This document shows, in pieces, positions 5,770 through 13,245 of a stretch of DNA of 64,000 nucleotides (position 1 is its first letter; the number at the start of each line of letters is the position of its first letter). The notes below the pieces were generated by a model that saw only the letters and a program-made list of their open reading frames with translations, searched no databases and had not been told where the DNA came from. The DNA is from a virus: IMG/VR virus record IMGVR_UViG_3300035128_000113. One strand, written 5' to 3'. The position numbers and the translations under genes were made by a program.

Positions 5770-6225
5770 TTATAGCGACCCCGTACCCAGAGTAAAATCA
5801 GGTAACCCATCCCCACTCACGCAATGGAACAGATGAAGACACCTAGGATGGATGTTCACATGCTCCGACTTCTTGGGTAAGACCATAATGGCGTTTACCT
5901 CATCCCCAAGCCAGTTTCTCTTGAGATAAACTAAGTCATCATAATCCGGCACACTGTCTTGACGTGAAATCGATAAATGTACCCAAAGTCTAAAGTTATC
6001 GTTCGAATACCTAGCTAACGAATATATGACTCGCATACCCATACTCATATTATCCCATGCCCCGTCATACCCTCCGGCTTCCCGACGAGTCCATCCAGGT
6101 GGCAGCTTCTCACCAGCTATAACCCCACGGATCTTTGCCATATTGACCTTCTCTACCTCGGAAAGTATTTTTGTACTGTCATAGTTCACCAATACCCTCC
6201 CACCAGTGAAAAAATTATCCATCAA
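5770..6225 (-). CDS. conserved phage protein (HLSISR/HPRCLHL family)
   Basis: WVHLSIS...PDYDDL..LK, EHVNIHPRCLHL motifs common in phage proteins; GGAGG RBS. Confidence 0.7.
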   Translation of the reverse strand: MMDNFFTGGRVLVNYDSTKILSEVEKVNMAKIRGVIAGEKLPPGWTRREAGGYDGAWDNMSMGMRVIYSLARYSNDNFRLWVHLSISRQDSVPDYDDLVYLKRNWLGDEVNAIMVLPKKSEHVNIHPRCLHLFHCVSGDGLPDFTLGTGSL

Positions 6226-6360
6226 CCCTCCAACTTAATATCTTTGCATTCTTCGCCATTACCTGACATCTCCACACATAACTCCACCCGAACTCGACCA
6301 CAATTTACTCAGCCTTACCATCACCTAAAGCTTAGTCTCACGATACTCTGCATTACCCTA

Positions 6361-6425
6361 CCAACACTCTACTGCAATTTACTCATCCTTACTCTTCCAA
6401 CACTCTACTGCAATTTACTTATCCT
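6361..6425. repeat. 36-nt-period tandem duplication within the array
   Basis: ccaacactctactgcaatttactcatcct (6361-6389) vs ccaacactctactgcaatttacttatcct (6397-6425). Confidence 0.9.
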
Positions 6426-6940
6426 ACCTAGCATACGCAATACTATTGCTCCTAAATGCACAACGTTACCCTGGACAGCATAACCTTAACTTGATTCTAC
6501 ACAGCCTCACAAAACTTTAGCTCTACCCATACATGATAGGCGCTATGCCCCACTAATCACAACATCGCATCTCAATACCTATACAACACATCACCCTTCA
6601 CGCCACAACCTCAGCAGGCTAGACCCTACACGCTACGCCACAACCCGCTTCCTCACTTTACCCGTTACTTCGACATACACGTCCCAGCATCACACCACAA
6701 TATGTTCCCTCGCTTTACTCACCACTTCGACGTACATTCCCTCACTCTACACCATACAATCCAAAACCTAGCCGTCCCTTACTTCCGCTCTGCATGCCAA
6801 TACCGCACATTGATACACATCACATCCACTCCGCATAGCATCTCTACATCGCGCATCACTTTACTTTACACCAACTCTACCCTACCCTACCAATCTACAC
6901 ATTGCTCAACGAGCACTCTACCCAACAGTGCGTTACAAAT

Positions 6941-6970
6941 CTCATCCGAGCTATACTCATCCGAACTATA
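6941..6970. repeat. 15-nt (three-pentamer) tandem duplication within the array
   Basis: ctcatccgagctata / ctcatccgaactata. Confidence 0.85.
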
Positions 6971-7854
6971 CCTTCGCAACATCGCACAAAACTGCCCAAA
7001 ACTTAACTCTCACTCAACATCACCTCTCTCTGCATTTCTTCCGCTTACCCTCACTATACCCATCTCTACTAAACTACACTATTGCTTCCATACTCTGCCC
7101 TCCGCCACACTGCCTTACCCCTACCAGGCTAAACATGACACTACATTCAATACAAAACTCCTCAATACTAATGCAAACATCGCGCTGCCCAACTTCTCTA
7201 CTACACCTATACATTACCATTCCCTACACCACGTTGCCTTGCTATAACTTATTATACCCTACAATACAATATACATCACACAGCTTCACTAAACAAGGCC
7301 CTACCAAACCATACAACTACGCCTAACGTTACCGTACATAGCAAACATAACGCCGCTTAACCTCACACCTGCATCACTAAGCCATCCATACCAAACCCTA
7401 CTCCACTCTAACATTACACAGCTTAACTTCACCTTGCTATAGCCATTCAAAACTGACCCCGACTTCACCATCACCCGTACGAATGCGAAACAATACCTAC
7501 CCGAACAGTATGCTACTAAACCCTACTTAACCTTTGCTTTACACTCTCTACTCAAGACATCCATACTCAACTCCACCTTCGCCTACCAGTACCCCACACA
7601 AAACAACTATGCTTCACCTACACTATGCTATTAATGCACTAAACAATATGACACTTTCCAGATACTCTACTGAACTATACCCAACCACTTCGATACCCAA
7701 CAACCCCATACAATGTGCCCACACTATACTTAGCGAAGATGTACCTTACAACTACAATGCATCACCCGTAAAATCAATGTCCGCATAGCACCACGGAAGA
7801 CCCCATTGCTCCACCTATACAAATGTCTACGTTACTCATCAATACCATACCGAA

Positions 7855-7866
7855 CCTTAGCTAAGG
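7855..7866. other. 12-bp palindrome at the array boundary
   Basis: ccttagctaagg, 1 nt after the RAMP stop codon. Confidence 0.6.
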
Positions 7867-7867
7867 C

Positions 7868-8527
7868 TTACTTATCTCCCTTGGAATCTTCTTTAGAAGA
7901 ACCCCCCAGATCTACAATCTCAACGATTTCTGCTTTGAAACGCCCTTTCCCCGCATTTCTCCATTGCCCTAACCCCTTATACTCCCCGTACTTAATAAGC
8001 CTTGTAACAAGGGGCACCAACTCATCTGTCATCACCGTAATGGAGAACTCTATCTTCGACCCCTCGGGGCATTCTTCAGATGTCATCAACGCTGTGCGCT
8101 CCCCTAGAGGGGTTTCTGCCCTCAATGGCCTGGTACACTCTGTTATCTCTCCCCCCTCGGGGAAAACAATAGGAATCTCCCTCGGATATACAAAGAACTG
8201 ACTACTCGCAACACGCTTATGCGTGTACTTGGATACCTTTTTAGTCTTTGAAATCTGGTACGGCTCAAACTCCACAACCGTAGACAGTGCCGCTTTTAGA
8301 AACCCCTTGACCTGATAGTCATAGAATATAGGTACCCCATCCTTCCTCGGAAAGACCGTCTTTGCCCTGTCCTGGAGAACATCTGCCGGAAGGTTCTCCA
8401 TCTCCTGCTGCACCTTCTCTTTATCCGCCGACTTTGAAGCTATGTACTCCAAATGAATGTCTGGATTGTTCGAATAGGTGCCCAAGATCGGATCTGTAAA
8501 CGTTGCTACTACTACTAACTTTTTCAT
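7868..8527 (-). CDS. stand-alone RAMP/Cas7(Csf2)-like protein, Vipr-like
   Basis: N-terminal strand TFTDPILGT, YDYQVKGFLKAA, RPLRAETPLGER, Gly-rich loop GLGQWRNAGKGRF; start set at MKKLVV (GGGAG RBS), track start 8548. Confidence 0.85.
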   Translation of the reverse strand: MKKLVVVATFTDPILGTYSNNPDIHLEYIASKSADKEKVQQEMENLPADVLQDRAKTVFPRKDGVPIFYDYQVKGFLKAALSTVVEFEPYQISKTKKVSKYTHKRVASSQFFVYPREIPIVFPEGGEITECTRPLRAETPLGERTALMTSEECPEGSKIEFSITVMTDELVPLVTRLIKYGEYKGLGQWRNAGKGRFKAEIVEIVDLGGSSKEDSKGDK

Positions 8528-8529
8528 AC

Positions 8530-9030
8530 TTAACTCCCTTTTTGGCATAACACCGAAGTGTCAAAGTCTTCAAAAATATTATACAAATCATTCCAAAACG
8601 ATGGAAGAGGAGTACTTAACCTCATTGCCATCCGACAAATAGTCTCTTCTGGAACTCCATGGATATTTCTTCTCAGTGCATCCGCAATACTGCACTTCAT
8701 TTTGATGATACTAACCTCGTACCCATGGGCTTCCGCCACCTTAATATAAGGCACCATCTCCAAAGCACTCGTATTAGTATTGTCAACAAATATCAACTCA
8801 TGCCTAGCTATCACTCCAGAAACAAACTCCCGCATACACTGTAAATGCGCATCCCTACTTCTCTCGGCAGTATAAAAGTATTCGCCGTCCTCCAGAAGAA
8901 AACTATCTGCATTTATGACGAGTGGAGCCGCCGTTCGAAAACCTTTATGAATAGCGACACGGTCACTCACATATGTGCTCTTGCCTGAACCGGGCAAGCC
9001 CCGAAGAATTATTAACTTATTCATCTTCAC
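8530..9030 (-). CDS. AAA_33/polynucleotide-kinase-like P-loop protein
   Basis: LRGLPGSGKST Walker A; VDNTN; RNIHGVPEETI. Confidence 0.85.
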   Translation of the reverse strand: MKMNKLIILRGLPGSGKSTYVSDRVAIHKGFRTAAPLVINADSFLLEDGEYFYTAERSRDAHLQCMREFVSGVIARHELIFVDNTNTSALEMVPYIKVAEAHGYEVSIIKMKCSIADALRRNIHGVPEETICRMAMRLSTPLPSFWNDLYNIFEDFDTSVLCQKGS

Positions 9031-12900: not shown

Positions 12901-13245
12901 TCAAAGTTTGATGTACTGATGCACTTCGCCGGAACCGTTCCAACTCCGCTCTACCTCAATACGTATTAATGCCCTTTCATACCCAAAATGGCTGTATATC
13001 CACTGACCTAACCCTACCCTATACCTTGATTGATGATTAATTGCCTCCTTCTGTGCCTCTACGTCCTTCGGAGCGTATTCAAGCACTTCCACTAAACTAC
13101 ATGCTACAACCTCTTGGTCCAAAGGGACCCCGGACTCAACCACAAGATCTGTGTCACAAATCTCTTCCGCAGCTACCGGAACTCCCCAAAGAACCAGACT
13201 CAGATACAATCCAAGAAGAACCTTGCACATGAATGCTCCTTTCAC
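12901..13245 (-). CDS. hypothetical exported protein
   Basis: Signal-peptide-like N-terminus (likely start MCKVLL at 13230). Confidence 0.6.
   Translation of the reverse strand: MKGAFMCKVLLGLYLSLVLWGVPVAAEEICDTDLVVESGVPLDQEVVACSLVEVLEYAPKDVEAQKEAINHQSRYRVGLGQWIYSHFGYERALIRIEVERSWNGSGEVHQYIKL

What the first reader, a model, noticed from the sequence alone, without database searches (positions are those of the whole stretch)
6245..8527. Stand-alone Cas7/RAMP-like gene with a ~1.6-kb pentamer-coded non-coding array: VIPR-like RNA-guided system
Seen: the 219-aa protein has RAMP hallmarks (TFTDPILGT, YQVKGFLKAA, RPLR, GLGQWRNAGKGRF). No cas3/5/6/8/1/2 genes or CRISPR repeats occur in the window. 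The stop codon is followed immediately by ~1.6 kb with no minus-strand ORF, built from 5-nt units. On the transcribed strand these read NN + DGY, e.g. AT-AGC AA-GGT GA-AGT TA-AGC TG-TGT AA-TGT; the array opens GGT-TC GGT-AT GGT-AT. Recalled from the literature, not verified here: phage VIPR systems pair a RAMP protein with RNAs of alternating GGY/NN units whose dinucleotides specify a gapped dsDNA target. Inference: this is such a system, with a relaxed DGY motif and roughly 300 units, enough for many guides against competing phages, the host or itself.
Basis: partly seen in the sequence, partly recalled or inferred. Interest (0 to 1): 0.96.

Follow-up and report, generated by a model that had tools for sequence, protein, structure and literature searches.

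The report
Phage VIPR system with giant guide array
A 110-kb wetland phage carries a VIPR system, a CRISPR-related RNA-guided DNA-binding system first described in 2026 preprints: a lone Cas7-like protein gene followed by about 313 five-base repeats over 1.6 kb, the longest such array among the roughly 85 relatives examined. It is a real but already known kind of system.

Summary

**Protein.** Window 7868-8527 (-) encodes a 219-aa RAMP-fold protein. Its five best non-CRISPR structural matches in AlphaFold DB are exactly the five founding Vipr entries named in the VIPR discovery preprint.

**Array.**
- Directly after the stop codon lie 1.64 kb (about 6240-7867, -) with no coding signal, built from about 313 pentamers N-N-N-G(0.89)-Y(0.83).
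- The parse scores 205, against 5±5 for shuffles and 6±7 for other segments of the same strand.
- It is the only such tract in the 110-kb genome.

**Relatives.** Nearly all of 80 relatives (40-50% identity) and a syntenic 62% relative have the same gene-plus-array layout. Their arrays are usually 450-850 nt and at most about 1 kb.

**Grammar.** The family's arrays have no tails. A +1-nt slip comes after about 6 units, giving roughly 31-nt modules.

**Motif and protein.** The relaxed first G fits two substitutions at the G1 contacts of SUSP1 Vipr (H17→T17, D177→Q188). The G2 and Y contacts, W and R, are kept.

**Not shown.** Transcription, processing, the pairing rule and the targets. All target searches were null or at chance level.

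**Prior knowledge.** Relaxed motifs (YNNNG, WGT/NN) and 'staggered' arrays are already in print. This scan has noted VIPR systems 61 times in at least 54 other genomes. This is a new member of a known kind, notable for the size of its array.

The parts
7868..8527 (-). vipr gene: a 219-aa stand-alone RAMP (Cas7-like) protein. In the model the RRM core is beta1 2-10 and helix-1 70-87. The alpha-helical bundle is 24-55. The thumb is a beta-hairpin at 129-153 with invariant R133-P-L-R136. The G-loop is 185-196 (GLGQWRNAGKGRF).
   Evidence: ORF. AF2 pLDDT 89.1, pTM 0.81. PDB fold hits are Csm3 and type VII Cas7, E about 4e-8. Top AFDB hits are the five founding Vipr entries. A profile hit to type VII Cas7 has E 4.5e-5. 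hhalign aligns it to SUSP1 Vipr over its full length, E 6e-4. No Pfam or PHROG family matches.
8534..8538 (-). GGGAG ribosome-binding site, 6 nt upstream of the vipr ATG. The stop codon of the upstream gene overlaps this spacer.
   Evidence: Read directly from the sequence.
7855..7866 (-). 12-nt perfect palindrome CCTTAGCTAAGG between the stop codon and the first GGT units. Its function is unknown.
Evidence: Sequence. Not tested in relatives.
6240..7867 (-). Presumed vrRNA array of about 313 pentamers N-N-N-G-Y. It falls into about 50 in-phase blocks of mostly 5-9 units, separated mainly by single extra nucleotides. It has no 3' tails, no hairpins and no ribozymes.
   Evidence: Periodicity and parse. 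No inverted repeats. No Rfam match at E <= 1. Folding is no better than shuffles, z = +0.92. No convincing promoter or terminator lies between the gene and the array.
6277..6428 (-). Three diverged copies of a 36-42-nt segment at the distal end of the array, with spacings of 74 and 36 nt. In some strains 54 nt at 6392-6447 are replaced by 18 nt.
   Evidence: the repeat finder families D1, D2 and D6. Joint seen in the contigs of runs X8 and X10.
8530..9030 (-). Upstream gene in the same transcription direction: a 166-aa P-loop NTPase (AAA_33; PHROG 'ATPase' / 'polynucleotide kinase'). It is a candidate accessory gene of this subclade.
   Evidence: Pfam AAA_33, E 5e-12. phrog_2071 2e-25 and phrog_505 4e-11. 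It holds the same position, at 43% identity, in the syntenic relative L091. It is absent from the 80 more distant relatives.
5770..6225 (-). First gene after the array, a DUF7694 protein. It marks the distal boundary of the array.
   Evidence: Pfam DUF7694, E 2e-20. It is syntenic in L091 at 50% identity.

Best explanation
This is a VIPR (Viral Interference Programmable Repeat) system of a 110-kb wetland phage. It has a stand-alone Vipr protein gene and, on the same strand directly behind it, an exceptionally long guide-RNA array.

**Shown here**
- The protein has the Vipr fold and its nearest structural relatives are the founding Vipr proteins.
- The 1.6-kb tract is non-coding, unstructured and built of about 313 N-N-N-G-Y pentamers.
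- The gene-plus-array arrangement is conserved across hundreds of viral relatives, while the array sequences themselves are not.

**Inferred from the published SUSP1 and P. fulva work**
- The tract is probably co-transcribed with vipr, as no terminator lies between them.
- One Vipr protomer would bind each pentamer.
- The thumb and G-loop would sequester the constant G-Y (W189 and R190 correspond to SUSP1 W178 and R179).
- The variable bases would be presented to pair with double-stranded DNA in a gapped register, silencing genes of competing mobile elements.

**My own inferences**
- The first G of the canonical GGY is free here because both of its SUSP1 contacts are replaced in this clade (H17 to T17, D177 to invariant Q188).
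- The single extra nucleotide after every 5-9 units punctuates the transcript into about 50 short, tail-less guide modules.

The targets and the exact pairing rule are unknown.
For: **Literature**
- VIPR is defined as Vipr plus GGY/NN pentamer RNAs, is mostly viral and has minimal loci.
- Alternative YNNNG, NNNGG and NNNNG repeats and tail-less 'staggered' arrays are described.
- WGT/NN and TGH/NN variants are described.
- The structural roles of H17, D177, R138, W178 and R179 are given.

**Protein**
- AF2 pLDDT is 89.
- AFDB ranks 1, 2, 3, 6 and 9 are the five founding Vipr accessions. The best is A0A1F4YLN4: E 9e-17, TM 0.73, 28% identity.
- PDB hits are Cas7-type RAMPs.
- hhalign to SUSP1 Vipr aligns GLGQWR with GVGDWR and T17 with H17.
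- Q188, W189, R190, R133, L135 and R136 are invariant in 33 family members; P134 is conserved in at least 90%.

**Array**
- It lies on the gene's sense strand, as in SUSP1.

**Conservation**
- At least 567 viral relatives exist.
- Of the 80 fetched, all with usable downstream DNA show a lag-5 array starting at the stop codon.
- In nearly all of them position 4 is G at about 0.8-0.9, and position 5 is mostly C.
- The syntenic 62% relative has an array of about 750 nt with no detectable sequence similarity to this one.

**Context**
- The genome is a virus record judged 100% complete.
- It has no Cas1, no Pfam RAMP and no CRISPR repeats.
Against: - There is no direct evidence of transcription, processing or protein binding. 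No RNA run holds the locus.
- No conserved 3' tail or pseudoknot was found, unlike the characterised type II vrRNAs.
- No accessory (vap) gene is shared across the clade.
- No target was found under the published 1-nt-skip rule or 10 alternatives, either in a 1-Mb local set or in the phage's own genome.
- Exact-pattern scans under the 1-nt-skip rule found nothing, or hits at chance level, in IMG/VR and JGI metagenomes. One guide gave 4 hits, 2 of them independent, against 2 hits for a shuffled control.
- hhalign probability to SUSP1 Vipr is only 29%, so the residue correspondences outside the G-loop and N-terminus are weak.
- The array is about 99% conserved between strains while a flanking gene differs by about 7%. 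It is therefore not hypervariable at this timescale.
Confidence: 0.85

Rival explanations
1. The Vipr-like protein and the array are a VIPR derivative that is not a multi-guide targeting system. The very long, weakly punctuated RNA could instead be a decoy or sponge that titrates a competitor's Vipr. Alternatively it could be one continuous nucleoprotein filament with a structural or regulatory role.
For: - The array has no tails, no processing signals and no ribozymes.
- Block lengths in this phage are irregular, with lags 26 and 36 stronger than 31.
- No targets were found.
- Decoy use of vrRNAs by satellites is described in print.
Against: - The cognate vipr gene sits directly upstream in the same operon, in this phage and in all relatives.
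- The variable positions are fully diverged between relatives while G-Y is kept. That is the pattern expected of guides.
- Indels between related arrays come in whole units and whole modules of 5, 10, 15, 26 and 31 nt.
Confidence: 0.08
2. The tract acts at the DNA level, for example as a pentanucleotide-periodic binding platform, a curvature element or a replication or packaging site. Its adjacency to the RAMP gene would then be incidental.
For: The periodicity is a property of the DNA as well as of any RNA. No promoter or terminator could be assigned.
Against: - The strand-specific G-Y motif always lies on the sense strand of vipr and starts at its stop codon, in about 80 independent loci from otherwise unrelated phage backbones.
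- The same arrangement in SUSP1 is experimentally shown to yield Vipr-bound RNAs.
Confidence: 0.03
3. The tract is protein-coding. It could be the + strand ORFs of 181, 132, 84 and 79 aa, a decayed gene, or a gene read in an alternative code.
For: Open frames of up to 181 aa exist on the + strand.
Against: - Periodicity is 5, not 3. Lag-3 excess is negative inside the tract.
- The + strand ORFs have no Pfam match and are low-complexity products of the C-rich complement.
- All other genes nearby lie on the - strand.
Confidence: 0.01

Closest known systems
VIPR systems (Vipr protein + vrRNA): bioRxiv 10.64898/2026.04.26.720920, structures in 10.64898/2026.04.26.720927, and non-canonical motifs in 10.64898/2026.10.21.760802
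   Same: - It has a stand-alone RAMP with RRM, bundle, thumb and G-loop.
- Its nearest folds are the five founding Vipr entries.
- It lies in a viral genome with no cas genes or CRISPR array.
- A sense-strand array of 5-nt units with a fixed G-Y and variable remaining positions follows the gene.
- The repeat corresponds to the published alternative YNNNG / WGT-NN type consensus.
   Different: - It has about 313 contiguous units over 1.64 kb. Published vrRNAs have 9-16 units, and the published de novo callers stop at 40 units.
- No 3' tail or pseudoknot and no hammerhead ribozyme was found.
- The array is punctuated by single extra nucleotides. This may be what the paper calls 'staggered arrays' (Fig. 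S18), but the figure could not be seen.
- Which of the seven published types it belongs to could not be determined, because the supplementary tables are not held.
Type II VIPR of Escherichia phage SUSP1 (KT454805; Vipr = L084:28474-29061, -)
   Same: - Gene order is the gene followed by a downstream array on the same strand.
- The G-loop has W and R (W178/R179 in SUSP1, W189/R190 here).
- Overall fold and length are similar (195 against 219 aa).
   Different: - Sequence similarity is detectable only by profile (hhalign E 6e-4, 24% identity over 173 columns).
- SUSP1 has strict GGY, four vrRNAs of about 100 nt with pseudoknot tails, and vap1.
- Here the first G is free, and both G1 contacts are substituted (H17→T, D177→Q).
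- Here there are no tails and no vap1.
Cas7-family RAMPs of type III (Csm3) and type VII CRISPR-Cas effectors
   Same: - These are the best solved-structure matches (Foldseek E about 4e-8, TM about 0.55).
- A profile hit to type VII Cas7 covers the thumb-to-G-loop region.
- Presumably it also shares one-protomer-per-repeat binding of a guide RNA.
   Different: - Identity is only 12-19%, and there is no match to Pfam RAMPs.
- The genome has no Cas10, Cas14, Cas5, Cas6, Cas1 or Cas2 partners and no CRISPR array.
- The RNA register is 5 nt rather than 6 nt.
- The guide is hard-wired in the genome rather than acquired.

Membership tests
VIPR system | Vipr protein: a minimal RAMP with RRM core, glycine-rich loop and thumb (plus alpha-bundle) | tested here: met
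   The AF2 model (pLDDT 89) has beta1, a three-helix bundle at 24-55, helix-1 at 70-87, a beta-hairpin at 129-153 and a G-loop at 185-196. The top PDB hits are Cas7-type RAMPs.
VIPR system | Belongs to the Vipr clade rather than to the CRISPR RAMPs | tested here: met
   AFDB-cluster ranks 1, 2, 3, 6 and 9 are the five founding Vipr accessions listed in the paper's methods. No phylogeny was built.
VIPR system | Flanking non-coding tandem pentamers with a fixed GGY (or related consensus) alternating with variable bases, on the gene's strand | tested here: met
   There are 313 N-N-N-G(0.89)-Y(0.83) units, scoring 205 against 5±5 for shuffles. This matches the published alternative YNNNG consensus. 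The first three units are canonical GGT-NN.
VIPR system | Minimal locus outside any CRISPR-Cas context, typically viral | tested here: met
   The genome is a complete 110-kb virus record. It has no Cas1, no Pfam RAMP and no CRISPR-like repeats. Other cas families were not searched one by one.
VIPR system | The gene-array association is conserved in homologues | tested here: met
   All of the 80 IMG/VR loci and 2 GenBank phage loci with usable downstream DNA have a lag-5 array beginning at the stop codon. The syntenic relative L091 does too.
VIPR system | Accessory vap gene | tested here: inconclusive
   No neighbour is shared across the clade. An AAA_33 P-loop kinase-like gene is conserved upstream only in the closest syntenic relative. 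A small HTH regulator lies upstream in 33 of 82 gut-phage relatives. The paper notes that stand-alone vipr genes exist.
VIPR system | vrRNAs are expressed and co-purify with Vipr | not testable with these tools
   Only DNA metagenome runs hold the locus.
VIPR system | Guides match natural dsDNA targets under the 1-nt-skip (NNx) rule | tested here: inconclusive
   No excess over shuffled guides was seen in a 1-Mb local set or in the phage's own genome. Four exact-pattern scans gave either no hits or a chance-level number. Searches that tolerate mismatches in large databases were not possible.
VIPR type II (SUSP1 / P. fulva) | Each vrRNA has 9-16 strict GGY-NN units capped by a conserved structured 3' tail (pseudoknot) | tested here: not met
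   There is no recurring tail, no inverted repeats, no Rfam hit and no excess folding. The first G is not conserved.
CRISPR-Cas type III / type VII effector (Cas7 subunit) | Encoded with other cas genes and a CRISPR array | tested here: not met
   The neighbouring genes are phage genes unrelated to cas.

The most novel reading that the evidence does not exclude
The array may be a new VIPR architecture rather than a long run of ordinary vrRNAs. In this reading one transcript is punctuated by single extra nucleotides into about 50 tail-less mini-guides of 5-9 pentamers, roughly one turn of the Vipr filament each. In relatives each module is opened by a canonical A-N-G-G-C unit and gained or lost as a whole module of 26 or 31 nt. 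That would give this phage by far the largest hard-wired guide repertoire known for the system. The loss of the H17/D177 contacts may also free the first G to become a third guide base, changing the pairing code. If the published 'staggered arrays' (Fig. S18, not visible to me) are the same thing, only the size and the code question remain new.
Probability: 0.3. Interest if true: 0.65.

Novelty: new member of a known kind. Interest (0 to 1): 0.45.

Why it matters
VIPR is a months-old discovery, and its natural diversity is still being mapped. This locus adds several things.

1. **An extreme case of array size.** It has about 313 units, against 9-16 per published vrRNA. This bears on how many guides one phage can field and how such RNAs are processed without tails or ribozymes.
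2. **A family-wide grammar.** Roughly 31-nt modules with a +1-nt slip behave as the unit of gain and loss.
3. **A testable link between sequence and specificity.** The G1-contacting residues of SUSP1 Vipr are substituted exactly in a clade whose repeats have lost the first G.
4. **A candidate new accessory gene.** A P-loop, polynucleotide-kinase-like gene sits next to vipr in this subclade.

None of this changes the known principle, and the scan has already found many VIPR loci.

Tried and rejected
**Target prediction**
- gapped-word look-up of all 8-unit (2-base) or 6-unit (3-base) guide windows from 80 arrays, against 0.98 Mb of related loci plus the phage's own genome. Twelve rules were tried: positions 1-2, 2-3 or 1-3, each with skip 0-3. 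The only hits were trivial 5-nt-register matches to unmasked array sequence.
- self-targeting in the 110-kb genome with 5- or 6-unit guide windows, exact or with at most 1 mismatch. Counts equalled the shuffled-order controls. One rule (positions 2-3, skip 0) gave 7 against 1.8±1.1. I do not trust it, given the roughly 40 comparisons made.
- exact IUPAC scans under the 1-nt-skip rule. Two blocks of 11 units gave 0 hits in JGI metagenome contigs, and a 9-unit block gave 0 hits in IMG/VR.
- A second 9-unit block gave 4 IMG/VR hits. Three are the same DnaE-like polymerase gene, in frame with the skip at the wobble position. A shuffled-order control gave 2 hits, so this is chance level.

**Expression**
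- No RNA run holds the locus. Laying DNA contigs gave only strain variation.

**Annotation libraries**
- Rfam found nothing, including no hammerhead.
- Consensus promoter and terminator scans were at background.
- Pfam and PHROGs have no family for the protein.
- megablast of the locus against GenBank phages found nothing.

**Other**
- Supplementary tables of the VIPR paper are not held, so the type could not be assigned.
- Complex prediction was not used. Homo-oligomerisation without RNA would not have changed my odds.
Full report
**1. The observation**

A GGGAG ribosome-binding site precedes the ATG at 8527. Homologues align from this Met, so 219 aa is the right length rather than the 226-aa ORF.

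From the stop codon down to about 6240 there is no minus-strand ORF above 57 aa. The composition there is G 36%, T 31%, A 24%, C 8.6%.

The evidence for a five-base rhythm is as follows.
- Identity autocorrelation peaks at lags 5, 10, 15 and 20, with z = 8.7, 6.0, 6.5 and 4.0.
- A sliding lag-5 statistic is high in every 300-nt window of the tract. The mean is 0.129, against -0.016±0.027 elsewhere with a maximum of 0.060.
- No other place in the 110-kb genome shows this signal.
- An EM/Viterbi parse into 5-nt units, with single-nucleotide insertions allowed, gives 313 units. Positions 1-3 are free of constraint (C about 7%). Position 4 is G at 0.89. Position 5 is T 0.63 / C 0.20.
- The parse scores 205, against 5.2±4.8 for shuffles and 6.0±6.6 for twenty other segments of the same strand.
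- Coding periodicity (lag 3) is absent.
- The + strand ORFs of up to 181 aa have no Pfam match.
- A 300-nt sample of the array RNA folds no better than its shuffles, z = +0.92.
- There are no inverted repeats and no Rfam family at E <= 1.

C-poverty is partly a property of the whole genome. Its coding strand has a GC skew of about +0.28 to +0.35 throughout, and the array is only more extreme at 0.59.

**2. What the protein is**

Pfam and PHROGs have no family for it. There are 225 database homologues, all unnamed metagenomic proteins of about 200 aa.

Invariant residues include L15, G16, Y71, Q72, G75, K78, R133, L135, R136 and G187-Q188-W189-R190.

An AlphaFold2 model built on 33 sequences is confident, with pLDDT 89.1 and pTM 0.81. 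It shows:
- a beta strand;
- a three-helix insertion at 24-55;
- a long helix at 70-87;
- a long beta-hairpin at 129-153 carrying R-P-L-R;
- a glycine-rich loop at 185-196 before the last strand.

Foldseek against the PDB returns Csm3 and type VII Cas7 subunits, with E about 4e-8. A sequence profile reaches type VII Cas7 at E 4.5e-5 and Csm4 at 0.02 over the G-loop region.

The decisive result comes from the 2.3 million AFDB fold clusters. Ranks 1, 2, 3, 6 and 9 are A0A1F4YLN4 (E 9e-17, TM 0.73, 28% identity), A0A2D6XG06, X1U2U4, A0A0F9A1L0 and A0A661D0E2. The methods of the VIPR discovery preprint name exactly these five UniProt entries as the founding non-CRISPR RAMPs 'corresponding to VIPR systems'. 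The protein is therefore a Vipr-family member, closest to the A0A1F4YLN4 cluster.

**3. What is known about VIPR (from the papers)**

- Vipr protomers bind one per 5-nt repeat.
- Thumb and G-loop sequester G1, G2 and Y3, and present N4N5.
- N4N5 pair with dsDNA while skipping every third target base, and transcription is silenced.
- Natural targets are satellites and rival prophages.
- Characterised (type II) vrRNAs have 9-16 repeats and a structured 3' tail.
- Seven types exist.
- Alternative repeats YNNNG, NNNGG and NNNNG, 'staggered arrays with overlapping vrRNAs' and ribozyme-interspersed arrays are mentioned.
- A later preprint reports WGT/NN and TGH/NN variants.

The relaxed motif here is therefore within published variation.

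**4. Conservation**

IMG/VR holds at least 567 loci encoding relatives.

- In the 80 loci fetched (42-50% identity) and two GenBank gut phages, a lag-5 array starts at the stop codon wherever downstream DNA is available. Lengths are mostly 450-850 nt, and the longest are about 990-1020 nt.
- In nearly all of them the parsed unit is N-N-N-G-C/A, with G at about 0.8-0.9.
- The closest relative (62% identity) lies in a syntenic phage, with the order AAA_33 gene, vipr, array of about 750 nt, one extra ORF, DUF7694. It has the same genome-wide GC skew.
- Its array shares no detectable similarity with this one, although the two flanking proteins compared are 43-50% identical and Vipr itself 62%.

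So the architecture is conserved and the content is free. This phage's array (1.64 kb) is the longest seen, about twice that of its nearest relative.

**5. Array grammar**

In the relatives, in-phase runs are interrupted almost always by a single extra nucleotide (1288 of 1431 gaps).
- Run length peaks at 6 units: 247 runs of 5, 335 of 6 and 204 of 7.
- G autocorrelation shows a super-period at 31, about 62-67, about 93-98 and about 124-129 nt.
- The first unit of a module is A-N-G-G-C (position 3 G at 0.88, against 0.26 in interior units). The last unit ends in G-C at 0.91.
- Indels between related arrays are enriched at 5, 10, 15, 26 and 31 nt.

In this phage the same slips occur, but the blocks are longer and less regular. 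They are mostly 5-9 units, and lags 26 and 36 exceed 31. The first-unit GG preference is weaker: 15 of 30 against 28 of 107, p = 0.02.

Local duplications are visible at 6277-6428, and with spacings of 15, 57, 66 and 72 nt elsewhere. These suggest growth by duplication and divergence.

Whether the modules are separate RNAs cannot be told from sequence. The paper's 'staggered arrays' may be the same thing.

**6. Protein and repeat co-variation (inference)**

I located SUSP1 Vipr (L084:28474-29061, minus strand) beside its GGT-NN arrays. hhalign aligns it end to end with this family, at E 6e-4 and probability 29%.

- The G-loops align as GVGDWR (SUSP1) against GLGQWR (here).
- The N-termini align so that SUSP1 H17 falls on T17.
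- In the structure paper, H17 and D177 hydrogen-bond G1, R138 and W178 hold G2, and R179 holds Y3.
- Here both G1 contacts are replaced (T17, and invariant Q188), while W189 and R190 are invariant.
- This matches repeats in which G1 is free but G2-Y3 are kept.
- The correspondence of thumb residue R138 to R133 rests only on a shared R-P motif and is not supported by the alignment.

**7. Context**

The genome is a 110,050-bp IMG/VR virus record judged complete. It is found in wetland metagenomes.
- It has no Cas1, no Pfam RAMP and no CRISPR-like repeats.
- All neighbouring genes are on the same strand.
- No convincing promoter or terminator separates vipr from the array, so co-transcription is likely.
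- Strain variants keep the array about 99% identical while the gene beyond it differs by about 7%. One 54-nt segment in the duplicated distal part is replaced by 18 nt.

**8. Targets**

All attempts were null or at chance level (details under Tried and rejected). The pairing rule for this clade is therefore untested. In particular it is unknown whether position 3 is sequestered or read.

**9. Verdict**

This is a real VIPR system and a new member of a known kind. This scan has already noted VIPR-type loci 61 times in at least 54 other genomes. Those include YNNNG arrays and 'punctuated, tail-less' arrays.

Its distinguishing points are:
- the array size;
- the documented module grammar across the family;
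- the G1-contact substitutions;
- a candidate kinase-like accessory gene.

Noticed in passing
whole window (and genome G000): There is extreme strand asymmetry. GC skew is about -0.35 on the window's + strand in almost every 2-kb bin. The genome as a whole has G 29% and C 16.5% on the coding strand. The syntenic relative L091 shows the same skew (+0.28). Nearly all genes lie on one strand.
   Followed up: partly
window 8530-9030 (-); L091:3863-4333: A P-loop AAA_33 / polynucleotide-kinase-like gene overlaps the vipr ribosome-binding site. It is conserved in the same position in the closest syntenic relative (43% identity) but not in the 80 more distant relatives. It may be a subclade-specific accessory or an RNA-end-processing factor.
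   Followed up: partly
L001:4782-4976 and 32 other relatives' loci: A 64-74-aa helix-turn-helix regulator (PHROG transcriptional regulator/repressor families) lies about 340 nt upstream of vipr in 33 of 82 relatives, mostly gut phages. It is possibly the vap-like DNA-binding partner of that subclade. It is absent from this window.
   Followed up: partly
window 6392-6447: In the contigs of two wetland runs (X8, X10), these 54 nt of the array are replaced by an unrelated 18-nt segment. The site lies inside the triplicated distal segment 6277-6428. This is an example of module-level turnover between strains.
   Followed up: partly
L085:2594-2619 (also L086, L087): One 9-unit guide block, read as NNx, matches a DnaE-like polymerase gene of three IMG/VR contigs exactly. 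The match is in frame, with the skipped base at the wobble position. A shuffled-order control pattern gave a similar number of hits, so I treat this as chance.
   Followed up: yes
genome G000:C1:12093-12135 and 13059-13105 (outside the window): There are two short tandem repeats: a 9-nt unit (ACAAAAAAC-like, at least 3 copies) and a 6-nt unit (GGATAC, at least 5 copies). They are not CRISPR-like.
   Followed up: no
L091:713-934: The syntenic relative carries an Acb2/Tad1-hairpin family gene (Pfam PF24729) about 3.5 kb upstream of vipr.
   Followed up: no
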